Assembly: GCA_019057795.1 (NCBI GenBank)
Contig: JAHLWS010000038.1
Span: 32,001-96,000, forward strand
DNA: 64,000 nt
Source of the DNA: Promethearchaeota archaeon
Lineage (GTDB): Archaea; Asgardarchaeota; Lokiarchaeia; Sigyniarchaeales; SOKP01
Reading direction: 5' to 3'
Shown here: positions 8,792 to 19,789 of the stretch, piece after piece
How the letters are laid out: each line of letters opens with the position of its first letter
Position numbering within the stretch: position 1 is the stretch's first letter
Position numbers and translations under genes: made by a program
Notes under the pieces: generated by a model
Databases searched by the model: none
Told to the model about the DNA's origin: nothing
The model's input: the letters and a program-made list of their open reading frames with translations, nothing else

Positions 8792-9895
8792 ATGTCTGAA
8801 AATATTATATATCTCGACGCAAAAACACTTGAAAGTTTTATGAGAGATGTTTTTATTGGGCTTGGGGTTCCTAAAGACGATGCCCACATTATAGCTGAAG
8901 TATTAATTGCTTCTGATATGAAAGGAATTGATACGCATGGAATACAACGTTGTAAAATGTATTTCGATCGTATCAAAGCTGGAATGTACGAAGTAATTAC
9001 AAAGATTGACATCGTTAAGGATGGTCCAACTACAGCTCTTTGGGACGGAAATTGCGGAATGGGGCACGTTATTGCTTATAAGGCGATGAAAACTGCGATT
9101 GAAAAAGCTAAAAAGTATGGACTTGGTTCTGTTGCTGTTCGAAATTCAACCCACTTTGGAATTGCGGGTTACTATTCTCTCATGGCTACAAAGGAAGGGA
9201 TGATTGGCTTCGCAGTTACTAACGCTCGCCCCTCCATGCCCCCTACTTTTGGAGTTGAACCAATGTTAGGAACAAATCCATTAACTGTAGGCGCTCCAAC
9301 AGACGAAGAATTCCCCTTTTTAATTGACTGTGCCACTACAATCATTCAAAGAGGTAAAGTAGAATTATACAATAGAATAAATAAACCTTTACCGGATGGG
9401 GTGGTAATAACAGACGATGGTAAAACAGAAACTGATCCTGCTAAAATATTAGAGGGTATGAGTAAAGGGAAAGCTGCGTTATTACCCTTAGGTGGCAAAG
9501 GAGAAAGTACTTCAGGTTATAAAGGCTATGGTTACGCAACCTTAGTTGAATTATTATCTGCAGCTTTACAAAATGGAATATATCTTAAAGATACGATAGG
9601 TATCGTTGAAAACGGGCAAAAGCGTTTAAAGGTGGGACATTTCTTTTTAGCAATTAATATTGAAAGCTTCCTATCAATTGGTTCTTTTAAAAAAACAGCC
9701 GGAAATATCATGAAGGGATTGAGAGAGTCAAAAAAGGCTCCAGGCGAGGAAAAGATTTACACTGCGGGAGAGAAGGAATTCATTGCCGAACAAGAAAGAT
9801 TAAAAACGGGCATTCCGATTAACAAAAGTTTACAAGAAGATATCAAAATTATGCGAAAGGAACTTCATCTCGATAAATACGAATTTAATTTTTAA
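8792..9895 (+). CDS. Ldh_2 family (malate/L-lactate/sulfolactate) dehydrogenase, paralog 1
   Basis: GIDTHG, VRNSTHFG, GTNP, GYKGYG, GHFFLAI. Confidence 0.9.
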   Translation: MSENIIYLDAKTLESFMRDVFIGLGVPKDDAHIIAEVLIASDMKGIDTHGIQRCKMYFDRIKAGMYEVITKIDIVKDGPTTALWDGNCGMGHVIAYKAMKTAIEKAKKYGLGSVAVRNSTHFGIAGYYSLMATKEGMIGFAVTNARPSMPPTFGVEPMLGTNPLTVGAPTDEEFPFLIDCATTIIQRGKVELYNRINKPLPDGVVITDDGKTETDPAKILEGMSKGKAALLPLGGKGESTSGYKGYGYATLVELLSAALQNGIYLKDTIGIVENGQKRLKVGHFFLAINIESFLSIGSFKKTAGNIMKGLRESKKAPGEEKIYTAGEKEFIAEQERLKTGIPINKSLQEDIKIMRKELHLDKYEFNF

Positions 9896-10060
9896 AAAAG
9901 TATCCTTTATTTTTCAATAAATTTCTAATTCTTTTTCTATAAAATTATCAAAAAAATCGCTAAAAATTATTAAAATTAGAGTTACACTAACTTTCAACTT
10001 ATATTCAATATGATTTTAATTAAATAGAAGGAATTCTAGTAAAATTCTATTGCATTCAAG

Positions 10061-11203
10061 ATGGTCTATATGACAAGTACAAAAAATGACATAGTACCCT
10101 TATCTAGTGATATTATTTACATAGATTTTAAGACTCTCAAGAATTTTATTAGAGATGTGTTCGTTGGTCTTAAGGTAAATAAAGTGGATTCTGAAATAAT
10201 TGCAGATGTATTAATGACATCCGATCTAAGAGGAATAGATTCGCATGGTATTCAGAGATGTAAGATGTATTACGATAGGATTAAAAAAGGAATTTATAAC
10301 ACAAAAACAAAGATAAAGATCGTTAAAAAAGGTCCTACAACTGCGGTTATTGATGGTGGATGTGGGTTAGGACCGGTTATAGGTTATAATGCTATGAAAT
10401 TAGCGATTCAAAAAGCCAAAAAGTATGGACTCGGAGCTGTTGCAGTTAGGAATTCTACGCATTTTGGGATTGCGGGATATTACTCTCTCATGGCTATAAA
10501 AGAAGGAATGATAGGGATTACAACCACTAACGCTAGACCCGCTGTTCCTCCAACATTTGGTGTAGAACCAATGTTAGGTACAAATCCCTTGACTGCGGGG
10601 GCACCAACAGACGAAAATTTTCCTTTTATGATTGATTGTGCGACCTCAATTATTCAAAGGGGTAAGATAGAAGTTTATAATAGAGAGCAAAAACCGCTTC
10701 CTGAAGGAGTAATCATAACCAGAAATGGAAGAACCCAAAACGATCCTCAAGAAACATTAAAAAATTTAGAAGATAGTACTGCAGCTCTTTTACCGCTAGG
10801 CGGTGAAGGTGAAAATACATCAGGTTATAAGGGTTTTGGATATGCTACACTTGTAGAAATTTTATCATCAGCATTACAAAACGGAGTATTCCTTAAAGAT
10901 ACAGCAGGAGTTATCGAAGAAGACCAAAAACGCTTAAAAGTTGGACACTTCTTTTTAGCAATAAATGTAAACCACTTTACACCCTTAAAAATGTTTAAAC
11001 GAACTACTGGGACAATTATGAGAACTCTTAGAAACTCTAAGAAAGCACCTGGTAAAAATCGAATATATACTGCTGGAGAAAAAGAATATTATTCTGAAAA
11101 AGTTAGAAAAAAACAAGGCATTCCAATTAATAAAAGTTTACAAGAAGATATTAAAACAATGCAAGAAGAACTGGGTTTATTTAGCTATAATTTTCCATTT
11201 TAA
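10061..11203 (+). CDS. Ldh_2 family dehydrogenase, paralog 2
   Basis: Same motifs (GIDSHG, NSTHFG, GTNP); colinear with the upstream gene. Confidence 0.9.
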   Translation: MVYMTSTKNDIVPLSSDIIYIDFKTLKNFIRDVFVGLKVNKVDSEIIADVLMTSDLRGIDSHGIQRCKMYYDRIKKGIYNTKTKIKIVKKGPTTAVIDGGCGLGPVIGYNAMKLAIQKAKKYGLGAVAVRNSTHFGIAGYYSLMAIKEGMIGITTTNARPAVPPTFGVEPMLGTNPLTAGAPTDENFPFMIDCATSIIQRGKIEVYNREQKPLPEGVIITRNGRTQNDPQETLKNLEDSTAALLPLGGEGENTSGYKGFGYATLVEILSSALQNGVFLKDTAGVIEEDQKRLKVGHFFLAINVNHFTPLKMFKRTTGTIMRTLRNSKKAPGKNRIYTAGEKEYYSEKVRKKQGIPINKSLQEDIKTMQEELGLFSYNFPF

Positions 11204-11204
11204 A

Positions 11205-12647
11205 TTAAAAAAAAATTCCATCTGTTCGACCTTCTAAAGGTTCAGAATGGATAATAATTTCTGTTAGGTTTTCAATTTTCAGAGTTTCTTCTATTTGTTG
11301 CTCTAAATTTGAAACTATATTATGAACTTTCGAAATGTTTAAGGATCCATCAAAAAAAACATGGAGTTCGAGTGTACAAAAATCAAGTGCTGCCCAAAAT
11401 TCTAAACCATGATATCCTTTAACTTCTGGATTGCTTTTTAATAAGCTTTCTAAAGTAATCTGGATTTCTCTTTTCTTTTGAGGTTCAATAGTAGTACAGA
11501 CTAAATGTTCAGCTATTAATTTTCGTATCGTAGCTTCTGATTCTATATGAGTAATTATTCGTGATATAAACGGAACTTGTTCCTTTAGTTGATTTTCAAA
11601 CATAATACTTAATTCGTGAGCTTCTTCTAGTAATAAATTCTCGTCAACTACTATTGCTACAGATAAAAAGTATTTATTTTCTATTCTGAAAACGTTTAAA
11701 TTCCTGAAATCTGAAATCTCATTAAATTCACTTTTCATTGAATGAAGTAAGTTAATTATCTCTTCACCCATTGAAGATTCACCACTTAAAGGATTCATCT
11801 CAACTATACATTCTACATTATAAGACGAAAAATATTTTTTACTCAATGTATGAATTGCTTTTGTAATTACATTTGCATGAATAACAGATATATGATCTTC
11901 AACAGATAAGCGAACATCTAAAAATAATGTGTTTCCACCAATTCTGACTTTTAATTCTTCAACATCATTAACATGATCAAGGTTAAAAACTTTTTCTTTG
12001 ATTTCTTCTAAAATAAGATAACTTATGGGATTTTCATCAATTAAATCTTTAATACCTTCTTTTGAAAGCTTAAGTGCGGTGAATATTATCCATAAAGAGA
12101 GACCAATACTAAAAAACGGGTCTAAAAATTGGATACTGAAAAAGAGAGCTAAAATGAAATTAATCATAACTATAATCGCTCTAAGAGAATCTTGGAATAG
12201 ATTTAAACCCATAATTTTAAGCGATAAGCTACTCCATTTCTTTCCTTGCCATATTAAAATCATAGAAAAAGTTAAATTAATAATGAATGAAATAATTAAC
12301 AGTAGAAACCCTAAATCAGGGTTCATAATACCATACGCGTTGGTTAATATTGTTTGAACAGCTAAATAAATAAGAATACAATAAAGATTTATCAATATAA
12401 TTCCTTGAATTAATCCACCTATTGAATCAATCTTAGAATGCCCGTACATATGTTGGAAATCTGGGGGTTTTTGACTTACATACAGAGAATAAATTGTTAG
12501 AAAAATAAAAAAAATATCAGTAAGCGTATCAACAGTTTCAGATAAAAAACTAAGACTTCCCGTTAGGATTACCCCTAGTAGTTTTAAACCTGACTGAATT
12601 AGGATTATGAAAAAAGTAATAATTCCCAATTTAATTTTTATGTCCAT
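11205..12647 (-). CDS. CDF transporter with three tandem C-terminal dimerisation domains
   Basis: HMYGHSKID; three repeats of the H-x-(I/L)...H(I/S)E-type C-terminal domain. Confidence 0.85.
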   Translation of the reverse strand: MDIKIKLGIITFFIILIQSGLKLLGVILTGSLSFLSETVDTLTDIFFIFLTIYSLYVSQKPPDFQHMYGHSKIDSIGGLIQGIILINLYCILIYLAVQTILTNAYGIMNPDLGFLLLIISFIINLTFSMILIWQGKKWSSLSLKIMGLNLFQDSLRAIIVMINFILALFFSIQFLDPFFSIGLSLWIIFTALKLSKEGIKDLIDENPISYLILEEIKEKVFNLDHVNDVEELKVRIGGNTLFLDVRLSVEDHISVIHANVITKAIHTLSKKYFSSYNVECIVEMNPLSGESSMGEEIINLLHSMKSEFNEISDFRNLNVFRIENKYFLSVAIVVDENLLLEEAHELSIMFENQLKEQVPFISRIITHIESEATIRKLIAEHLVCTTIEPQKKREIQITLESLLKSNPEVKGYHGLEFWAALDFCTLELHVFFDGSLNISKVHNIVSNLEQQIEETLKIENLTEIIIHSEPLEGRTDGIFF

Positions 12648-12763: not shown

Positions 12764-13993
12764 TTAGAGGTGTCTTGGAATTTTTATTTCAAGATCTGTA
12801 ATTGGGTAGGATGCGCATGGATGGAAATAATCAAATTTCTTATCCCCAGCTTTTCTCCAATCAGAAACGGGATTTATATATACATCACCAGAAATAAGAA
12901 GTGAACGACAGAACCCACATTCGCCAGAGCGGCATTTTGATGGTGGATTTAAGTTTGCCCGTTCTAGAGCAACAAGGACTGATTCTGTTGCCTTTGCTGG
13001 TATGTCTTTAATCAAACTTCCAATGTGAGTCTTAATTTTAAATACTTTATCAACTACATCTTGAGGGAAGTCTGGATTACTTAGAATATCTTTAATTTCA
13101 CCAAATGCTTCTCTACGGACGCGTTTATGATGTAAATTGAATTTTTCTAATTCTTTTTCAACAAAATTATACATAACTTGTGGTCCACAGATAAAAAATG
13201 AACTATTGTTTATGTCGCAATACTTTTCTATAATATCAGAAGTTAAAAAACCCAATTCAGATCCTTCAAGGGTGACTTCTTTACAACTTAAAACATGTAC
13301 AACTTTAATTTTTTCTGGGTACTTCTTTTCAATCTCTTTAAATTCGTCGTAATAAATAATGTCGTCTTCTTCGCTACTTCCATACAGCAAAGTTAATTTT
13401 GCATCTAATTTGTCTTCAACAATTTCTTTAGCGATGGATCGGAAAGGTGTAATTCCTGACCCTCCTGCGAGACCGACTATCTGTTTTAAATCCCTAAGAG
13501 GTTCGTAAAAAAAGAATCCTTCTGGTCCAGAACTTTCAATTTTAGTTCCTACTTTCCAACTATCCCATATGTATCCAGTTAAAAATCCGGGTTCTTCTTT
13601 TCTAATCGTAATTTCATAGAAACCTTTTAAAGCATCCGAAGGAGAAGAAGCTATTGAATAAGGTCTTGTGATAGCAACTCCATTCACTTGAACCTTCAAA
13701 CTTAAATATTGACCGGCTCTAAAATAGGCCAATTCTTTTGTGTTTGAATCAGGATCGGGTGTGAGCTTAAATGTTTTAGTGGATTTTGTTTCGTCTTTGA
13801 TTTCACTAATAACTAAGTATTGTCTTATGGGATGAAGTCGCACAGCGAGTTCATTCATTGGATCCTTTGTTATCGGCTCACTAGATGCCTTTTCGAACCT
13901 CTTTTTTCGGTTTGGGACTAATTTTGTAAACGCAAATAAATCTCTTGTGTTGCTTTTGATAATTATATCAAATTTCTTTTTTTCTCCGCTCAT
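12764..13993 (-). CDS. FNR-type FAD/NAD(P) reductase with C-terminal 2Fe-2S domain
   Basis: RPYS, GGSGITP, CGP, EAF, CRSGECGFC...C. Confidence 0.9.
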   Translation of the reverse strand: MSGEKKKFDIIIKSNTRDLFAFTKLVPNRKKRFEKASSEPITKDPMNELAVRLHPIRQYLVISEIKDETKSTKTFKLTPDPDSNTKELAYFRAGQYLSLKVQVNGVAITRPYSIASSPSDALKGFYEITIRKEEPGFLTGYIWDSWKVGTKIESSGPEGFFFYEPLRDLKQIVGLAGGSGITPFRSIAKEIVEDKLDAKLTLLYGSSEEDDIIYYDEFKEIEKKYPEKIKVVHVLSCKEVTLEGSELGFLTSDIIEKYCDINNSSFFICGPQVMYNFVEKELEKFNLHHKRVRREAFGEIKDILSNPDFPQDVVDKVFKIKTHIGSLIKDIPAKATESVLVALERANLNPPSKCRSGECGFCRSLLISGDVYINPVSDWRKAGDKKFDYFHPCASYPITDLEIKIPRHL

Positions 13994-15558
13994 TTTAGCT
14001 CACCTTTTTTATGTAAATCTTGTAAAGTTAGTAAAGCAGCAGTTTCTCCGTCCTTTAAAGCACTACTATATCCGTGACATCTTTTGCCAAAACCACCACA
14101 AAATTCAAGACCCTCAATATGCTTTTCGTCATTCATTGTCATCAAGCGTGGGACAAATGAATCCCAAGAATCTGGTTCGTATCCATATACTACTCCATTA
14201 TAACTTCTGGTAAATCTTGATATGGTTTGAGGCGTAGCAACTTCAATTTCTTCAATATGTTCCTTTATTGGAGCACCAGTAGTTTTTTCCAAAGTGTTAA
14301 TAAGGTCTCCCGCGATTTTATTTTTTAATGTAAAGTAATCTTCGGGTTTAACATCGTCCCATACTCCCGGTAGAAAAGCAGTTGTAATCGAAATAATACA
14401 TGTACCTGGAGGTGAGCAATCTGGGATTGCATTATTTAAACAAATTGTTGCTTGAACCCCAGGCGTTTCAAGGTTGTTCAAAGATTCGTAAAGTACATCA
14501 GTATTCTTATTGTTATAAATAAAATAACTATAATCTTTGAGTCCTAATTCATCGGCCGTTGCATCTAAACCCAAATAAACAACAAATGTAGAAACTCCAT
14601 GCCTTCTCGCATTTATTTCCTTATAAGCAATTTCTGGAACTTCTGATTTGGGATGTATTAATTTGTTATAAGTAAGCGTGGGCGAAGCGTTGCAAACAAC
14701 ATGATTCGTTTTAATCTTATCTCCTTTAGAAGTTTCAACTCCGACAACTTTACCGTTTTCAACCAATATTTTTTCCACTGTCGTGTTATATTCGATTTTA
14801 CCCCCTAATTCTCTAATACTTGTATCTAGAGCAGTAGTGTAGTCGTGAGATCGATATTTTGGAATATAAGCACCTTTTAAAATATAACCATAAACCATAG
14901 AAGCAAAGATCGTAAAATTTACTCTACTTGTTGGAAGGCCTAAATAAACCCAATACGCGTTAAGAATGCTCCTTGCTTTTTCTGGCATATTAAGGGCATT
15001 TTGAATATCCTCCACAGAATAAGCTGTAGTTTTAAGAAAATTTGAATGCTCCTTTAGTAAAACATTTTGATCTGGGTTTCCTTTTGATTGCCCTATATAG
15101 GCAGTTGCCCTATTAATGTCTTCTGCTAAGCCAAAAAACTTACTTACCGATTCTCTACTTCCCGGGACCTCTTTTTCAATAGTATCAAGATAAGAATCAA
15201 TTCCAAACGGCATTACTACATCAACACCTTCATCTGGGTCCGTTAAAATTAACCTATACGCCTCAGGAACTTCTACGAACTCTGAATCTAGGTTATATTT
15301 TTCTAATAATCTTCTAGTACCGCCCTTATCTGATGAAGGCCCATAATCATAAAGTTCGTGAAGTGAAGTCTCAAACTCAAACCTTCCCCTTACAAAGCTG
15401 GAAGCAAATCCTCCAGGTAAGTTATGTTGTTCTAAAAGCAGTATTTTAACGCCTCTCATTGCTAATTCTGCGGCGGCTATTAGACCGCCATTACCGGCGC
15501 CAATTATTATAGCATCATAAGTTTCGCTAATTGCTTGTTCAATACTCTCATTACTCAT
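13990..15558 (-). CDS. Phytoene desaturase / CrtISO / retinol saturase-like FAD oxidoreductase
   Basis: IGAGNGG...EQHNLPGG, ATPQT..RFT...GVVYG; 4-bp overlap with the downstream reductase. Confidence 0.85.
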   Translation of the reverse strand: MSNESIEQAISETYDAIIIGAGNGGLIAAAELAMRGVKILLLEQHNLPGGFASSFVRGRFEFETSLHELYDYGPSSDKGGTRRLLEKYNLDSEFVEVPEAYRLILTDPDEGVDVVMPFGIDSYLDTIEKEVPGSRESVSKFFGLAEDINRATAYIGQSKGNPDQNVLLKEHSNFLKTTAYSVEDIQNALNMPEKARSILNAYWVYLGLPTSRVNFTIFASMVYGYILKGAYIPKYRSHDYTTALDTSIRELGGKIEYNTTVEKILVENGKVVGVETSKGDKIKTNHVVCNASPTLTYNKLIHPKSEVPEIAYKEINARRHGVSTFVVYLGLDATADELGLKDYSYFIYNNKNTDVLYESLNNLETPGVQATICLNNAIPDCSPPGTCIISITTAFLPGVWDDVKPEDYFTLKNKIAGDLINTLEKTTGAPIKEHIEEIEVATPQTISRFTRSYNGVVYGYEPDSWDSFVPRLMTMNDEKHIEGLEFCGGFGKRCHGYSSALKDGETAALLTLQDLHKKGELK

Positions 15559-15833
15559 TTTAAATTCTCCTCATTTTTCAAAAAAAAAACAATATTAGTT
15601 CAATAAATTTTTGCATCTATTAATATATTATTCTGTTATTATTTAGTCAATATTTAAAATATATTGATTTAATTGTGGAAAGATCAAACTTTAAAAAAAA
15701 AGTATGTTTAATTATTTGACAAAGAGATATAATTTTTAATAAAAAAAAATAACAATTAAAATATTAAAAGAAAAGAATTATATTAGTACCAATTTAAAAT
15801 AAGAAATTTTTCGAATTTAAAGAGATAATTAAT

Positions 15834-18800
15834 ATGAATGAATTAGAAATTGATAAAGAGATTGAAAATTTTAAAGAGCAATTAAATTTACTAGCGATGA
15901 TATTCGATACTCGTAGAAAAATGCGTAGAGAGATATCTAACGAAAAAACAGGATTTGTCTTTAATGCTAGATATCAGTTTACTACAAAAGATGATGAAGT
16001 TAATGTAAACGTAATATTTAAAGATGGAAAAATGACAGTCGGCGAGGGAAAAATTGACGATCCAAACATAACAATTTATTATAAAGATAAAGAGACTTTG
16101 GCTAATCTCTATAATAAAAGTGCTGAAGAATCTCTTGATTATCTTTTGACAAATGAAATGGGGTATATAGGAAACATGTCTTACCTTACTAAATTCTCTT
16201 ATCTTACTTCACTTGTTACGGCTCCTAAAAAAAGGGCTTATAAAGGTCCAGAAAATCAATTAATATATCCTATCGAAGATATTGATAAGGGAAAAAAGAG
16301 CAGAAAACTAAGGAACGAGAGCTTAAATCGTAAGATCGATAATGTTCAAGTTTTAGAAGATCCATATCTGTCAAAATATACTTTAGATGATTTTCCACGC
16401 TTAAAATATTTGAAAAATAGAAGATTTGCCTTAAAACCAGTGATATGTGTTGAAAGAGCAAAACATTTGACAGAATATCATAGAGAGAATGGATTTGAAG
16501 TAGACAATTCAGGAAATCCGATTGATCCCGAATTGCGCCAGGCAAGAGCAGTAAATCATATAATGTCAAATAAAAAACCAATAATTCATGATAAACATCT
16601 TATAGCAGGTTCAACTACTTCAAAAGAAGTAGGTATCCCCTTGTATCCGGAACTTATCGCGACGGGTATATGGCCTGAACTAAAAACTATTGGTGAACGT
16701 GAGCTTAATCCTAACGATATCTCAGATAAAGATGCGGATATCTTAAGTTTGGAAGTATTTCCCTATTGGATGGAGCGGAATGTAAGAGAATATTGTAGAA
16801 CAAAAAACAACGATCCATTCTCGCAGCATTTAGAAGAAGGGTGGGTTTTTTATTTCATGATGAAAAATAACGCGATTAGTCATACTGTTCCTGGTTTTCC
16901 AATGGTGCTTAATGAAGGGTTAGAAAGCGTGAAGAATAAAGCTAATAAAATGGAAATAAAAGCGGATACAACTGAAAAGCAAAATTTTTATAAGGCTATT
17001 CAAATTGCAATCGATGGGGTTCTAGCGTATTCTCAACATTTAAGTGAAGAAGCCCTTAGATCTGCTAATAATTTAGATCAAAATGATCCGGAACAAGCTA
17101 CTCGCATTGAAGAATTGAAGGAACTCTCTAGAATATGTGCCAAAGTCCCTGCTAAACCAGCAGAAACAATGTATGAAGCAGTTCAATCAATTTGGACTAG
17201 TTTTGTTTGTCTTCACTGTGAAAATGCAAATTCGGCTTTATCAATTGGTCGGCTTGATCAAATGTTACAACCTTTCTTTTTAAAAGAAATTGAAAAAGCT
17301 GCAAATGATGAAGAAAGAAATCAAATTGTAAAAAAAGCTATAGAATTTGTAGGATCGTTATTTTTGAGGATAAATGACCACGATCCGGTAATGCCGAATG
17401 TAGGGTGGAAATTATTCGGGGGGAGCTCTTCTGACGACACAGTAACTATTGGAGGTGTAGATAGAGATGGTAAAAATGCCGTAAACGATATGAGTTTTAT
17501 TATATTAAAAACAAATGAAATGCTGGGTTTTCAGGATCCTAATATGAATGCCAGATATTATTCTGGTATTAATTCAAAGGAGTATCTAAGACGATTGTGT
17601 GAAGTAAATATCAATATGGGCGCTTCGCCTAGTATTCATAACGATAGAACTATGATTGAAGCGTTGGTCCATGAAGAATTCTCAATTGAAGACGCAAGAG
17701 ATTGGGCGGCTACAGGTTGTGTAGAGCCCACAATTGTAGGTAAACATTATGGTCATACGAATTGTATGCTTTTAAACTTAGTCGCACCATTAGAAATTAC
17801 TTTAAATAATGGTTTCATACCTTTAACTGGAGAAAAAGTGGGTCCTGAAACGGGTGATGTTCGAACATCTTTCCCGACATTCGAAGACTTTCTTAATGCA
17901 TATAAAACTCAACTCAAATATTTAGCAGAAAAATCAATTGAAATAAATAATTATTTAGGAGAAGCCCATCGGTATATACATCCTACACCATTATTATCTG
18001 GATTCTTTGAGGGTCCTTTAGAACAAGGCAAAGATCTTATTCAAGGAGGAGCTATTTATAATACATCAGGAGTTGCCTTAGTGGCATTGACAGATGTGGT
18101 TGATAGCTTATTAGTTGTAAGAGATCTCATCTACAAGAAAAAAGAATTGAACTTTGCTACATTGATGGATGCCATTGAAAATAACTTTGAGAATGGTTTT
18201 GAATCAGTTCTACACAATATAGAACAAGTTCCAAAATTTGGGTCTGGCGAAAATGGTACTTTCGAACTTGCTCAAGATTTAATTGACTTTTGCTACGATG
18301 TTTATCATTCTATTGATAATTATAGAGGAGGTAAATACTTAGTGGGATATTGGTCTATTAGTTACCACGCAGGGTTTGGAATGCTTACTGGCGCCTTGCC
18401 CTCAGGTAGAAAGAAAGGTAAAGCATTAACACCTGGACTAACTCCCGCCCCGGGTACAACGGATATCCTATTACCAAGTATTCAAAGTGTTGCGAGCTTA
18501 GATTACTTGAAAATGCCAAATAATGCATCTTATAATGTAAAATTAATACCTCATTCTGGAGATTCACATAAAGAAACATTAGATCTCTTTACAAGTTATG
18601 TGCAAAGCTTTTTTGATTTGAATGGGATGCAGTGGCAATTTAATGTCGTGTCCACTGATACATTAAGAGATGCGATGGCAAATCCAATTGATTACCGCTG
18701 GCTTTTAGTTAGAGTTTCAGGATATAACGCATATTTCACGAAATTAAATAAGAATATGCAATTAGAATTTATTGAGCGGCATGAATATAAATCAAGATAA
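15834..18800 (+). CDS. Glycyl radical enzyme (eliminase-like, non-PFL) with N-terminal SCP2-like domain
   Basis: SIGRLDQ, thiyl loop GCVEP, glycyl loop LVRVSGY; residues ~40-128 resemble SCP2 (YQF...VIFKDGKMTVGEGKIDDPNITI...GNMSYLTKF). Confidence 0.88.
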   Translation: MNELEIDKEIENFKEQLNLLAMIFDTRRKMRREISNEKTGFVFNARYQFTTKDDEVNVNVIFKDGKMTVGEGKIDDPNITIYYKDKETLANLYNKSAEESLDYLLTNEMGYIGNMSYLTKFSYLTSLVTAPKKRAYKGPENQLIYPIEDIDKGKKSRKLRNESLNRKIDNVQVLEDPYLSKYTLDDFPRLKYLKNRRFALKPVICVERAKHLTEYHRENGFEVDNSGNPIDPELRQARAVNHIMSNKKPIIHDKHLIAGSTTSKEVGIPLYPELIATGIWPELKTIGERELNPNDISDKDADILSLEVFPYWMERNVREYCRTKNNDPFSQHLEEGWVFYFMMKNNAISHTVPGFPMVLNEGLESVKNKANKMEIKADTTEKQNFYKAIQIAIDGVLAYSQHLSEEALRSANNLDQNDPEQATRIEELKELSRICAKVPAKPAETMYEAVQSIWTSFVCLHCENANSALSIGRLDQMLQPFFLKEIEKAANDEERNQIVKKAIEFVGSLFLRINDHDPVMPNVGWKLFGGSSSDDTVTIGGVDRDGKNAVNDMSFIILKTNEMLGFQDPNMNARYYSGINSKEYLRRLCEVNINMGASPSIHNDRTMIEALVHEEFSIEDARDWAATGCVEPTIVGKHYGHTNCMLLNLVAPLEITLNNGFIPLTGEKVGPETGDVRTSFPTFEDFLNAYKTQLKYLAEKSIEINNYLGEAHRYIHPTPLLSGFFEGPLEQGKDLIQGGAIYNTSGVALVALTDVVDSLLVVRDLIYKKKELNFATLMDAIENNFENGFESVLHNIEQVPKFGSGENGTFELAQDLIDFCYDVYHSIDNYRGGKYLVGYWSISYHAGFGMLTGALPSGRKKGKALTPGLTPAPGTTDILLPSIQSVASLDYLKMPNNASYNVKLIPHSGDSHKETLDLFTSYVQSFFDLNGMQWQFNVVSTDTLRDAMANPIDYRWLLVRVSGYNAYFTKLNKNMQLEFIERHEYKSR

Positions 18801-18889
18801 ACCTAATGAAAGATATTTTTTTTATTCATTTTATCTAACTTTTTAATTTTTTTATCTTTACTTTTATTGACGATATTATATTCTCAACA

Positions 18890-19789
18890 ATGACAGATAA
18901 AACTCTATTAGTAGATATTAAAAGGAACGCTTTAGATGACGGTCCAGGAATAAGAACATTACTATTTTTTAAAGGTTGCCCACTTTCTTGTGTATGGTGC
19001 CAAAATCCTGAAGCCAAATCGCCATTTAAAGAAATTTCTTTTAATAAAGATAGTTGTAGTGAATGTGGAACATGTTTAAAAGTTTGTAATCAAGAAGCTA
19101 TAGATTTTTCATATAAATATCGAATAGATCGCTCTTTATGTAATCTCTGTGGTAAATGCATTGAAGTATGCCCAAATTATGCCTTAGAATTTGTAGGACA
19201 AGAATATAGCATAAAAGACTTACTTGAAATTATATTAAAAGATAAAATTTTTTATAAAAATTCAGGTGGAGGGGTTACCTTTTCTGGCGGAGAACCACTT
19301 TTTCATATAGATTACATAAAGGAATTAGTAAAAGAACTCAAAAAAGAAGATATTCATTTATGCATTGAAACCTGTGGATATTATAATCGAGACAAATTTT
19401 ATGAATTTATTTTACCATATATCGACCTTATTTATTTTGATTTGAAAATTTACAATCCACAATTACATGCTAGATATTGTAAAGTTTCAAACGAGAGGAT
19501 ATTAAAAAATTTTGAAGATATCATTGAAAACAAATCAATAGAAATATTACCAAGGATTCCTCTTGTTCCTAATATAACTGATACTGACGATAATTTGAGT
19601 AACTTAGCTAATTATTTGAAAACCTTAAATATAAAAAAAATAGGATTATTACCTTATAATCCACTCTGGCTCTCTAAACCAGAAAAGATAGGAATTAAAC
19701 CATCCTATGACTATTCTGAATGGTTAGATAATAAAGATAAAGAGAGAATTAAATCAATTTTTTCTGATTTTGAATTTAAAGATTTTTAG
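18890..19789 (+). CDS. Glycyl radical enzyme activating enzyme (radical SAM with ferredoxin insert)
   Basis: DGPGIRT, GCPLSCVWCQNPE, two CxxCxxCxxxC clusters, GVTFSGGEP. Confidence 0.95.
   Translation: MTDKTLLVDIKRNALDDGPGIRTLLFFKGCPLSCVWCQNPEAKSPFKEISFNKDSCSECGTCLKVCNQEAIDFSYKYRIDRSLCNLCGKCIEVCPNYALEFVGQEYSIKDLLEIILKDKIFYKNSGGGVTFSGGEPLFHIDYIKELVKELKKEDIHLCIETCGYYNRDKFYEFILPYIDLIYFDLKIYNPQLHARYCKVSNERILKNFEDIIENKSIEILPRIPLVPNITDTDDNLSNLANYLKTLNIKKIGLLPYNPLWLSKPEKIGIKPSYDYSEWLDNKDKERIKSIFSDFEFKDF

What the first reader, a model, noticed from the sequence alone, without database searches (positions are those of the whole stretch)
12764..19789. Candidate anaerobic lipid-modifying system: SCP2-fused GRE, activase, saturase-like enzyme and reductase
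Seen: a divergent four-gene cluster. The 988-aa GRE has an N-terminal extension resembling SCP2 and a GCVEP thiyl loop. The RetSat/CrtISO-like flavoprotein is translationally coupled to an FAD/2Fe-2S reductase. Knowledge: Cys-x-Glu loops typify GRE eliminases (glycerol dehydratase, CutC, HypD), whereas PFL has Cys-Cys; SCP2 binds sterols and acyl chains; CrtI/RetSat enzymes act on C=C bonds of hydrophobic substrates. Inference: radical dehydration or C-O cleavage of a lipid substrate coupled to double-bond redox. I know of no characterised GRE with this fusion.
Basis: partly seen in the sequence, partly recalled or inferred. Interest (0 to 1): 0.75.

Follow-up and report, generated by a model that had tools for sequence, protein, structure and literature searches.

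The report
Lipid-carrier-fused glycyl radical enzyme
An Asgard (Lokiarchaeial) archaeon carries an uncharacterised oxygen-sensitive radical enzyme fused to a sterol-carrier-type lipid-binding domain; across archaea and bacteria its steady partners are an aldehyde-oxidising enzyme and fatty-acid breakdown genes, not the neighbouring carotenoid-type flavoenzyme, so it probably starts an unknown anaerobic breakdown route for a greasy substrate.

Summary
The four genes are intact. The 988-aa glycyl radical enzyme (GRE) has a GCVEP Cys loop and an RVSGY glycine loop. Its first ~130 residues fold as SCP2 (VIA Z 10-11.7; Foldseek top 45 hits all SCP2-fold). The CrtI-family gene overlaps the FNR/2Fe-2S reductase gene by 4 nt.

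The four-gene reading is only partly supported. The SCP2-GRE is a highly conserved ~987-aa family in Asgard archaea and in Desulfobacterota, Syntrophomonadaceae and other anaerobes. It reaches no curated GRE class cut-off and lies nearest the PFL2/dehydratase branch. CrtI+FNR sits beside it only in one crown Lokiarchaeial clade, and each module occurs without the other in syntenic genomes.

Partners seen in both domains are the activase, aldehyde:ferredoxin oxidoreductase (AOR), one enoyl-CoA hydratase subfamily, a FadE-like acyl-CoA dehydrogenase and an acyl-CoA ligase. A docking test places the SCP2 domain on the catalytic barrel (0.87; best control 0.00).

Best reading: a new eliminase-type GRE acts on a hydrophobic substrate and yields an aldehyde that enters AOR and beta-oxidation. 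The substrate is unknown. Other first readers of this scan flagged the same fusion, with an activase and often an AOR, in other genomes. I found no paper describing it.

The parts
15834..18800 (+). SCP2-fused glycyl radical enzyme, 988 aa (P0001)
   Evidence: Pfam PFL-like + Gly_radical. About 150 homologues of about 987 aa share the same N-terminus.
15834..16223 (+). N-terminal SCP2-fold domain (aa 1-130)
   Evidence: AF2 model. Foldseek and VIA searches place SCP2 chains on top. The model docks it on the catalytic domain.
16224..16388 (+). Linker (aa 131-185). Low model confidence, but with conserved YKGPEN and DPYL motifs.
   Evidence: pLDDT 48-57 over residues 131-170; conservation in alignment A1.
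16389..18797 (+). GRE catalytic barrel (aa 186-988)
   Evidence: phmmer against the PDB: A. fulgidus PFL2 2F3O 374 bits, diol dehydratase 5I2A 355, glycerol dehydratase 1R8W 342.
16881..16883 (+). His350, aligned to glycerol dehydratase His164
   Evidence: Alignment to 1R8W; conserved in at least 95% of 114 family members.
17715..17729 (+). Thiyl loop G628-C629-V630-E631-P632
   Evidence: Translation; conserved in at least 95% of the family.
18711..18725 (+). Glycyl radical motif R960-V-S-G963-Y
   Evidence: Translation; Gly_radical Pfam domain.
18890..19789 (+). GRE activating enzyme (radical SAM, two auxiliary 4Fe-4S motifs), 299 aa
   Evidence: TIGR02494 289.5 bits, above its cut-off of 174. 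Adjacent to the GRE in 37 of 69 loci.
24046..25842 (-). Aldehyde:ferredoxin oxidoreductase, orthologue of the AOR that directly follows the activase in other Asgard genomes
   Evidence: AFOR_N + AFOR_C. It is 55-96% identical to GRE-adjacent AORs in 16 other Asgard loci and at most 37% identical to the other 11 AOR-like matches in its own genome.
13990..15558 (-). CrtI/CrtD-family FAD protein, 522 aa. A neighbour, probably a separate module.
   Evidence: NCBIfam carotenoid-isomerase and crtI_fam hits fall below their cut-offs. AF2 model: pLDDT 85.6; best PDB match gamma-carotenoid desaturase 4REP, TM 0.76/0.81.
12764..13993 (-). FNR-like FAD/NAD(P)H reductase with C-terminal plant-type 2Fe-2S domain, 409 aa; overlaps CrtI by 4 nt
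   Evidence: Pfam. Overlap read. The FNR gene follows the CrtI gene in all 21 CrtI-bearing loci and in L076-L078.

Best explanation
There are two modules here, not one.

(1) GRE + activase, with the AOR 4 kb downstream, encodes a new class of eliminase-type glycyl radical enzyme. The activase puts a radical on Gly963. The radical passes to Cys629, which abstracts a hydrogen from a carbinol carbon of the substrate. Glu631 deprotonates the hydroxyl, His350 helps the neighbouring group leave, and the product is an aldehyde. The N-terminal SCP2 domain is docked on the barrel. It holds or delivers the hydrophobic tail of a lipid-like substrate, as the SCP2-like domains of alkylsulfatases and peroxisomal beta-oxidation enzymes do. 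The aldehyde is oxidised by the tungsten-type AOR to an acid, reducing ferredoxin. The acid is then CoA-activated and processed by an acyl-CoA dehydrogenase and an enoyl-CoA hydratase.

(2) CrtI+FNR is an independent two-component NAD(P)H-driven flavoenzyme, probably acting on a C=C bond of an isoprenoid or other lipid. It shares a syntenic block (Ldh2-Ldh2-CDF) with the GRE in one Lokiarchaeial lineage only.

Shown: the folds, the motifs, the family distribution, the gene associations and the predicted docking. Inferred: elimination chemistry, an aldehyde product, a hydrophobic substrate. Unknown: the substrate itself.
For: The SCP2 fold is supported.

Docking: ipSAE 0.87 (three runs 0.86-0.89), best of three controls 0.00. 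The mark was reached by 58 of 80 solved complexes and 2 of 110 mismatched pairs. The runs agree in at least 85% of contacts and the partner's pLDDT is at least 82. The predicted interface residues are largely the family-invariant ones: E33, N36, T39, F43, L101, L104-N107, G113, N114, Y117, T119, S122 and Y123 on the SCP2 side; W280-L283, F309-M313, R318 and E319 on the barrel. The interface also touches loops next to active-site strands (522-527, 664-667, 850-851).

Eliminase features: C-x-E and His350 are conserved in at least 95% of 114 members. The nearest solved relatives are A. fulgidus PFL2 and diol or glycerol dehydratases, HypD and CutC at 320-374 bits. MasD scores 192, BssA 174 and PFL 96.

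Gene context in 69 species-level loci: activase 37; AOR 28 (21 archaeal, 7 bacterial, the bacterial ones in several lineages); ECH 14 (4 archaeal, 10 bacterial); FadE-like ACAD 5; AMP-ligase 5. The ACAD stop overlaps the GRE start in a Desulfosudaceae genome. Locus L066 has one tight same-strand row: GRE2, AMP-ligase, ECH, AOR, ACAD, SCP2-GRE. Most GRE-linked ECHs form one subfamily, 36-48% identical across the two domains, against 20-34% for the outliers in L039, L049, L063 and L069. Archaeal GRE-linked AORs form one orthogroup that persists down to loci whose GRE is only 70% identical.

Independence of CrtI+FNR.
Against: No substrate is identified and no biochemistry exists for any family member. 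Several glycerol-dehydratase pocket residues are not kept (the role of each GDH residue is from my memory of the literature, not checked here): D447 aligns with N643, S282 with A468, Y339 with D534 and Y640 with W840. So it is not a plain diol dehydratase. AOR genes are numerous in these genomes (12 AOR-like matches here), and the bacterial GRE-linked AORs belong to other AOR subfamilies at 30-36% identity. In this window the AOR is convergent and separated from the activase by a 4-kb insertion. In Desulfatibacillum the GRE stands alone, with none of these partners nearby. A second SCP2-GRE subfamily in Asgard has only the activase beside it. An SCP2 fold does not prove lipid binding. The docking result is a model's confidence, not a measurement.
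Confidence: 0.5

Rival explanations
1. All four genes form one lipid-modifying system: the GRE dehydrates or cleaves a lipid, and the CrtI-like enzyme, fed by the FNR/2Fe-2S reductase, reduces or isomerises a resulting or pre-existing C=C bond.
For: The divergent arrangement with a shared spacer is kept in 21 species-level loci while CrtI identity falls to about 60%. Two loci (L028, L033) carry a second CrtI-FNR pair on the other side of the GRE-activase-AOR block. The two genes co-occur in genomes of the same family more often than independence predicts (21 genomes have both; 24 x 34 / 69 gives about 12), but the genomes are kin. This genome has only one close CrtI copy, and it lies here.
Against: All adjacent cases fall in one crown clade of the GRE tree, so one ancestral juxtaposition explains them. 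CrtI-FNR is tied to CDF-Ldh2 and stays there when GRE-activase is absent (L076, L077, L078). GRE-activase-AOR sits next to AlaRS with CrtI on another contig in four of the seven AlaRS-type genomes that could be matched to the genome sample (G177, G189, G255, G279). More distant Asgard loci and all bacterial loci lack CrtI/FNR within 7 kb. Fifteen sampled genomes have CrtI without the GRE and 7 have the GRE without CrtI.
Confidence: 0.15
2. The SCP2-like domain is structural or regulatory (for oligomerisation, membrane tethering or gating), and the enzyme is a PFL2-type dehydratase or lyase for a small polar substrate.
For: The conserved face of the SCP2 domain is the predicted protein-protein interface rather than an obvious ligand site. 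The catalytic domain is of ordinary size and nearest to small-molecule eliminases. The genome holds seven other GRE-like matches.
Against: In solved enzymes that matched the model, fused SCP2-fold domains belong to alkylsulfatases such as SdsA1 (solved with 1-dodecanol or 1-decane-sulfonic acid bound) and to human MFE-2. From my own knowledge, these domains bind the alkyl or acyl chain of the substrate. The conserved context of FadE-like ACAD, ECH and acyl-CoA ligase points to acyl chains.
Confidence: 0.2
3. The substrate is an acyl-CoA thioester. SCP2 domains bind acyl-CoAs, and the GRE would perform a radical step inside a modified beta-oxidation of chains that ordinary beta-oxidation cannot pass, such as branched or substituted chains. 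The AOR and the ligase would recycle an aldehyde fragment.
For: In bacteria the GRE is translationally coupled to ACAD and preceded by ECH. The fused SCP2 domain of peroxisomal MFE-2 was among the fold hits. That SCPx also carries one is from my own knowledge.
Against: No known GRE acts on a CoA ester. No CoA-binding features were identified. No hydroxyacyl-CoA dehydrogenase or thiolase stood out among the recurring neighbour clusters.
Confidence: 0.1
4. It is a fumarate-adding enzyme (alkyl- or benzylsuccinate synthase) that activates hydrocarbons, as proposed for Asgard GREs by Zhang et al. 2021 (PMC8163825).
For: It occurs in the alkane- and alkene-degrading genus Desulfatibacillum. A hydrophobic-ligand domain would suit alkanes. 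The published claim covers Hermodarchaeota GREs with a single Cys.
Against: MasD and BssA are among its most distant solved relatives, at 192 and 174 bits against 374 for PFL2. No small accessory-subunit genes flank it. The AOR association has no role in the known fumarate-addition pathway (my knowledge). The published argument rests on 29-33% identity and on the absence of a Cys-Cys pair, which all non-PFL GREs share.
Confidence: 0.05

Closest known systems
B12-independent glycerol dehydratase (C. butyricum, 1R8W) and propanediol dehydratase (R. inulinivorans, 5I2A)
   Same: Same barrel and glycine loop. The GCVEP Cys-x-Glu loop and the His equivalent to H164 are kept. It has a dedicated ferredoxin-insert activase. 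The presumed product is an aldehyde.
   Different: Scores are only 342-355 bits. It falls below even the TIGR01774 subfamily cut-off (529 against 678). GDH D447, S282, Y339 and Y640 align with N, A, D and W. It has a 185-residue SCP2 domain plus linker. Its partners are AOR and beta-oxidation genes, not microcompartment or 1,3-propanediol genes.
Archaeoglobus fulgidus PFL2/PflD (2F3O), function unknown
   Same: It is the best solved relative (374 bits). It is archaeal, has a single Cys with Glu, and has been suggested in the literature to handle a larger substrate or long-chain hydrocarbons.
   Different: It has 776 aa and no SCP2 domain. It keeps Asp at the GDH-D447 position, where this family has Asn.
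Choline TMA-lyase CutC, hydroxyproline dehydratase HypD, sulfonate GREs HpsG/IslA
   Same: They are 1,2-eliminases with Cys-x-Glu that give carbonyl products.
   Different: NCBIfam equivalog scores are 393, 414 and 361 against cut-offs of 1050, 1100 and 1000. Their substrates are small and polar, and they have no lipid-carrier domain.
Enzymes with fused SCP2-fold domains: alkylsulfatases SdsA1, Pisa1 and YjcS; human MFE-2 SCP-2L; UbiJ
   Same: The fold is the same (Z 10-11.7). The logic is the same: a hydrophobic-chain binding module attached to, or working with, a catalytic domain.
   Different: In those enzymes the domain is C-terminal or stand-alone, and none is joined to a radical enzyme. 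Sequence identity is only 11-18%, and the Pfam SCP2 hit is below threshold.
X-succinate synthases (MasD 9O8U, BssA 4PKC)
   Same: They are GREs for hydrophobic substrates found in the same kinds of anaerobes.
   Different: They are distant (192 and 174 bits). They need small Fe-S subunits, which are absent here.
CrtI/CrtD/CrtISO/RetSat flavoenzymes (for the neighbouring gene)
   Same: The fold matches gamma-carotenoid desaturase 4REP (TM 0.76/0.81). The protein has a GxGxxG FAD motif. The best NCBIfam hit is carotenoid isomerase.
   Different: Scores are 119 bits against a cut-off of 587 for carotenoid isomerase and 91 against 238 for crtI_fam. It is obligately paired with an FNR/2Fe-2S reductase. 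The family is large and mostly Asgard.

Membership tests
Glycyl radical enzyme superfamily | PFL-like barrel plus C-terminal glycine-radical domain with an RVxG motif | tested here: met
   PF02901 E 8e-153 and PF01228 E 5e-22; R960-V-S-G963-Y.
Glycyl radical enzyme superfamily | Catalytic Cys on the finger loop, and a dedicated radical-SAM activase | tested here: met
   C629 is conserved in at least 95% of members. The activase scores 289.5 bits on TIGR02494, above its cut-off of 174, and is adjacent in 37 of 69 loci.
GRE 1,2-eliminases (diol dehydratases, CutC, HypD, IslA) | Cys-x-Glu general base on the Cys loop | tested here: met
   GCVEP is conserved in at least 95% of 114 members.
GRE 1,2-eliminases (diol dehydratases, CutC, HypD, IslA) | Score above the curated cut-off of a characterised class | tested here: not met
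   HypD 414 against 1100, CutC 393 against 1050, HpsG 361 against 1000, TIGR01774 subfamily 529 against 678.
B12-independent diol/glycerol dehydratase | Pocket residues H164, S282, D447 and Y339/Y640 of 1R8W (their roles recalled from the literature, not verified here) | tested here: not met
   H164 is kept as H350. S282, D447, Y339 and Y640 align with A468, N643, D534 and W840.
Pyruvate formate-lyase | Adjacent Cys-Cys pair; TIGR01255 score | tested here: not met
   The loop is G-C-V-E. TIGR01255 scores 121 against 994.
X-succinate (fumarate-adding) synthases | Close similarity to BssA/MasD, and small beta/gamma subunit genes beside the catalytic gene | tested here: not met
   174 and 192 bits, among the lowest of the solved GREs. 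There is no ORF of 30 aa or more in either flanking gap.
SCP2 sterol/lipid carrier family | Sequence match to PF02036 above the gathering score | tested here: not met
   14 bits against 21.3, E 0.065. A sister fusion subfamily reaches E 0.003.
SCP2 sterol/lipid carrier family | Alpha/beta SCP2 fold | tested here: met
   Z 9.9-11.7 to nine SCP2-fold chains, then unrelated folds at 6.0 or below. Foldseek's top 45 hits are all SCP2-fold.
SCP2 sterol/lipid carrier family | A hydrophobic tunnel that binds a lipid | not testable with these tools
   No model coordinates are available. This needs binding assays or an experimental structure.
CrtI/phytoene-desaturase family (neighbour gene) | TIGR02734 cut-off; CrtI-type fold | tested here: inconclusive
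   91 bits against 238, but the best structural match is CrtD-type 4REP at TM 0.76/0.81, well above the amine oxidases at about 0.58.

The most novel reading that the evidence does not exclude
The SCP2-GRE may be the entry enzyme of an oxygen-independent route for breaking down glycerol-ether lipids or similar vicinal-diol lipids, such as 1-O-alkylglycerols, archaeal or bacterial ether-lipid cores, or bacteriohopanepolyol side chains. In this reading, radical dehydration of the free glycerol diol gives a 3-alkoxy-aldehyde. AOR oxidises it, a ligase makes the CoA ester, ACAD desaturates it, and ECH hydrates the enol ether to a hemiacetal that falls apart and releases the alcohol. This would explain why exactly AOR, ligase, ACAD and ECH are linked to the GRE, while no dehydrogenase or thiolase stood out among its recurring neighbours. 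[quoted passage not shown] An anaerobic route in sediment Asgard archaea and sulfate reducers would therefore be new biochemistry, with consequences for how lipid biomarkers persist in sediments.
Probability: 0.12. Interest if true: 0.9.

Novelty: new variant of a known kind. Interest (0 to 1): 0.66.

Why it matters
Glycyl radical enzymes carry out the hardest anaerobic transformations, and most sequence clusters of the superfamily still have no assigned function. This cluster is unusually well marked: a lipid-carrier fold predicted to dock on the barrel, very strong conservation (59-97% identity to the window's enzyme across the archaeal and bacterial loci), and a repeatable link to aldehyde oxidation and acyl-CoA processing. 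It occurs in the sediment organisms thought to recycle refractory organic matter, namely Lokiarchaeia and other Asgard lineages, Desulfobacterales and Syntrophomonas. It would be the first GRE built for a hydrophobic non-hydrocarbon substrate. It also bears on published claims that Asgard GREs are alkylsuccinate synthases. Some carriers are cultivated (Desulfatibacillum), so the hypothesis can be tested.

Tried and rejected
Pfam and NCBIfam on residues 1-195 alone gave only a sub-threshold SCP2 hit and no NCBIfam hit. The fold prediction was needed to settle the domain.

Literature searches for 'glycyl radical' with SCP2, sterol carrier, ether lipid, alkylglycerol, hopanoid, long-chain diol or fatty aldehyde returned nothing relevant. 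The Hodarchaeal microcompartment preprint mentions GREs only in its reference list.

Neighbours of the divergent SCP2-GRE subfamily B (ECF transporter component, aminotransferase, gamma-glutamyltranspeptidase, isochorismatase, small GTPase) gave no common theme.

The two ECH orthologues on contig C80 of this genome lie 2.7-5 kb from another GRE paralogue. PIN, phosphorylase and LRR genes separate them, so I did not treat them as an operon.

I could not obtain sequences of characterised GREs as objects for a joint tree or a sequence similarity network. Class placement therefore rests on HMM and phmmer scores.

The GRE tree was rooted on subfamily B. It shows the Asgard clade nested among Desulfobacterota sequences. 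Branch supports were not examined, so I make no claim about the direction of transfer.

Full report
**What is there.** The window comes from a Lokiarchaeial (Promethearchaeota, Asgard) genome of 4.95 Mb; the closest relatives are named, and the genome is described. Four intact genes lie at the stated coordinates. On the minus strand are a 409-aa FNR-like reductase (FAD_binding_6, NAD_binding_1, C-terminal Fer2) and a 522-aa CrtI-family FAD protein. On the plus strand are a 988-aa glycyl radical enzyme (GRE) and a 299-aa activase with two auxiliary cluster motifs. The CrtI stop and the FNR start overlap as ATGA.

**The N-terminal extension.** By sequence, residues 1-195 give only a sub-threshold SCP2 hit (E 0.065). 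A search with this segment returned 150 proteins. Almost all are about 983-1010 aa with the same architecture, at 52-94% identity in this segment. They come from Loki-, Thor-, Hod-, Hermod-, Odin- and Frey/Jord-archaeal MAGs and from Desulfatibacillum, Desulfosudaceae, Desulfomonilia and Anaerolineales. An AlphaFold2 model on 40 of them is confident for residues 1-130. Foldseek's 45 best PDB matches are all SCP2 proteins, UbiJ-SCP2 or the SCP2-like domains of alkylsulfatases. A search that does not depend on Foldseek puts nine SCP2-fold chains at Z 9.9-11.7 and unrelated folds at 6.0 or below. The SCP2 fold is therefore established. Lipid binding is not.

A profile of the domain searched against 1.8 billion representatives found 301 proteins. 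These include further fusion subfamilies of about 985-1010 aa and many stand-alone proteins of about 150 aa with no Pfam family.

**Is the domain docked or a loose appendage?** I folded the SCP2 domain and the catalytic domain as two chains, each with its own alignment. The score was ipSAE 0.87 (runs 0.86-0.89), against 0.00 for the best of three controls. That mark was reached by 58 of 80 solved complexes and by 2 of 110 mismatched pairs. The runs agree in at least 85% of contacts, and the partner's pLDDT is at least 82. No similar complex is known to me, so a pass from memory is unlikely, but this is still a model's confidence and not a measurement. The predicted contacts coincide with the family-invariant residues of both domains. 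They also touch loops that follow active-site strands: 522-527 just before the GGSSSDD segment, 664-667 after the Cys loop, and 850-851 before ALPSGR. This fits a cap over the barrel mouth. That last step is an inference.

**What kind of GRE is it?** Every curated class model scores far below its cut-off: HypD 414 against 1100, CutC 393 against 1050, HpsG 361 against 1000, PFL 377 against 1109, indoleacetate decarboxylase 270 against 1100. Even the PFL2/glycerol-dehydratase subfamily model scores 529 against 678. Among solved structures the order is A. fulgidus PFL2 (374 bits), propanediol dehydratase, glycerol dehydratase, HypD and CutC, then MasD (192), BssA (174) and PFL (96). In the alignment to glycerol dehydratase the Cys, the Glu and the His equivalent to H164 are kept, and they are conserved in at least 95% of 114 family members. 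The positions of S282, D447, Y339 and Y640 carry A468, N643, D534 and W840. The functional roles of the dehydratase residues are from my memory of the literature. The enzyme thus has the machinery of a 1,2-eliminase but a different pocket. The genome holds seven further GRE-like matches of 777-865 aa at 30-33% identity, none with the extension.

**Are the neighbours conserved?** I fetched 69 species-level loci with up to 10 kb on each side, called ORFs, clustered them all-against-all and mapped the clusters.

- CrtI+FNR lies divergently next to the GRE in 21 of 48 archaeal loci (the window included) and in none of 21 bacterial loci.
- On a GRE tree, all 21 fall in one crown clade. That clade also contains a subgroup where GRE-activase-AOR follows AlaRS instead.
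- L025 has CDF|GRE-activase with no CrtI/FNR.
- L077 matches L030 gene for gene on both sides but lacks exactly GRE-activase, and it keeps CrtI-FNR-CDF-Ldh2-Ldh2.
- L076 has two CrtI-FNR pairs beside CDF and no GRE.
- Across 301 sampled Asgard genomes, 28 have this GRE subfamily, 36 have the CrtI orthologue and 21 have both, with the two genes adjacent in about 11. Seven have the GRE alone and 15 have the CrtI alone, some of them rated 100% complete.

CrtI+FNR is itself a firm two-gene unit. The FNR gene follows the CrtI gene in all 21 CrtI-bearing loci and in L076-L078 (in L078 the FNR reading frame is split), and the fold matches the CrtD-type desaturase 4REP at TM 0.76/0.81. Its link to the GRE, however, looks like inherited synteny in one lineage.

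**What is conserved with the GRE across both domains?**

- The activase is present in 37 loci.
- An aldehyde:ferredoxin oxidoreductase is present in 28 loci: 21 archaeal and 7 bacterial, the latter in Desulfobacterales, Syntrophomonadaceae, Bacteriovoracaceae-labelled and Spirochaetales MAGs.
- An enoyl-CoA hydratase is present in 14 loci (4 archaeal, 10 bacterial).
- A 602-aa FadE-like acyl-CoA dehydrogenase is present in 5 bacterial loci.
- An AMP-forming ligase is present in 5 loci.

In a Desulfosudaceae genome the ACAD stop overlaps the GRE start. One Desulfobacterales locus (L066) has a tight same-strand row: GRE2, ligase, ECH, AOR, ACAD, SCP2-GRE. Most GRE-linked hydratases form one subfamily, 36-48% identical between archaea and bacteria, against 20-34% for the outliers. 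The archaeal GRE-linked AORs are one orthogroup (55-96% identity), which includes the window's AOR at 24046-25842. The other 11 AOR-like matches in this genome are at most 37% identical to it. The bacterial linked AORs come from other AOR subfamilies. That argues for repeated recruitment rather than co-inheritance, but it could also be chance in AOR-rich genomes. In this window the AOR is separated from the activase by a 4-kb insertion that the 97%-identical relative L007 lacks.

**Mechanism proposed.** The activase generates the Gly963 radical, which passes to Cys629. The thiyl radical abstracts hydrogen from a hydroxyl-bearing carbon. Glu631 takes the hydroxyl proton, and His350 assists departure of the vicinal group, which could be OH, OR or an amine. 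Return of the hydrogen gives an aldehyde. The docked SCP2 domain holds the hydrophobic part of the substrate. AOR oxidises the aldehyde and reduces ferredoxin. The ligase, ACAD and ECH then take the acid into CoA-dependent breakdown.

The folds, motifs, distribution, gene linkage and predicted docking are shown. The chemistry, the aldehyde product and the hydrophobic substrate are inferred. The substrate is unknown. I put 0.5 on this general statement.

The most novel reading not excluded is anaerobic cleavage of glycerol-ether or other vicinal-diol lipids. It would explain the specific ACAD+ECH pairing, but nothing here tests it.

**Rivals.**

- The four-gene model (0.15) is weakened by the independence data above.
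- A purely structural SCP2 domain with a small substrate (0.2) cannot be excluded, because the conserved face is the interface.
- An acyl-CoA substrate (0.1) is suggested by the ACAD coupling.
- The fumarate-adding reading published for Asgard GREs (PMC8163825) is unlikely for this family (0.05). MasD and BssA are among its most distant solved relatives, and no small-subunit ORFs flank the gene.

**Prior knowledge.** No paper in the searchable library links a GRE to an SCP2 domain. Other first readers of this scan flagged the same fusion, with an activase and often an AOR, in other genomes. Those notes are unchecked, and I reached the AOR link independently from the locus clustering.

**Verdict.** This is a real, conserved, uncharacterised GRE class with a new domain fusion. 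It is a new variant of a known kind. The saturase/reductase pair is a neighbour, not a demonstrated partner.

Noticed in passing
window 20134-23941: A three-gene minus-strand operon (380, 209 and 248 aa; no Pfam family above threshold) lies between the activase and the AOR. With the 187-aa gene at 23378-23941 it separates them by about 4 kb. The 97%-identical relative L007 has only the 187-aa gene there, so the operon is a recent insertion into the GRE-activase-AOR block.
   Followed up: partly
whole genome G000 (contigs C63, C53, C24, C70, C80, C79, C56): The genome holds seven further GRE-like matches of 777-865 aa at 30-33% identity to this one. This is an unusually large GRE repertoire for an archaeon, and none of the paralogues was classified here.
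   Followed up: no
L079-L082 (G165, G264, G192, G246): There is a second SCP2-GRE subfamily in Asgard genomes (about 980-992 aa, 36-40% identical in the N-terminal domain, about 50% overall). An activase is always beside it, but no AOR, ECH or CrtI.
   Followed up: partly
L066:1231-13674: A Desulfobacterales MAG has a tight same-strand row: an 831-aa GRE without SCP2, an AMP-ligase, ECH, AOR, a FadE-like ACAD, the SCP2-GRE and a 209-aa protein of unknown family. That last protein also follows the AOR in L049. So two different GREs sit in one apparent operon.
   Followed up: partly
L003:12146-12265 (same place in L025): A 40-aa fragment 65% identical to the FNR-type reductase lies downstream of the activase in a genome that has no CrtI/FNR beside the GRE. 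It may be a relic of a lost second pair, like the intact ones downstream of the AOR in L028 and L033.
   Followed up: no
proteins P0260-P0391: Many stand-alone proteins of about 145-200 aa match the profile of the GRE's SCP2-like domain (E 1e-16 to 1e-8) and have no Pfam family. They form an unannotated family of small SCP2-like proteins.
   Followed up: partly
L041, L042, L044, L045 (Frey/Jord-archaeal loci): In this clade the gene divergently upstream of the SCP2-GRE is a PIG-L/LmbE-type de-N-acetylase. In three of the four loci an alpha/beta-hydrolase lies a few genes away. A HAD-type hydrolase follows the GRE in one bacterial locus (L060) and one archaeal locus (L038).
   Followed up: no
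window 8792-12647: Two tandem Ldh_2-family dehydrogenases and a cation-efflux gene with three ZT_dimer stretches form a block. It stays with CrtI-FNR even where the GRE is absent (L076-L078).
   Followed up: partly
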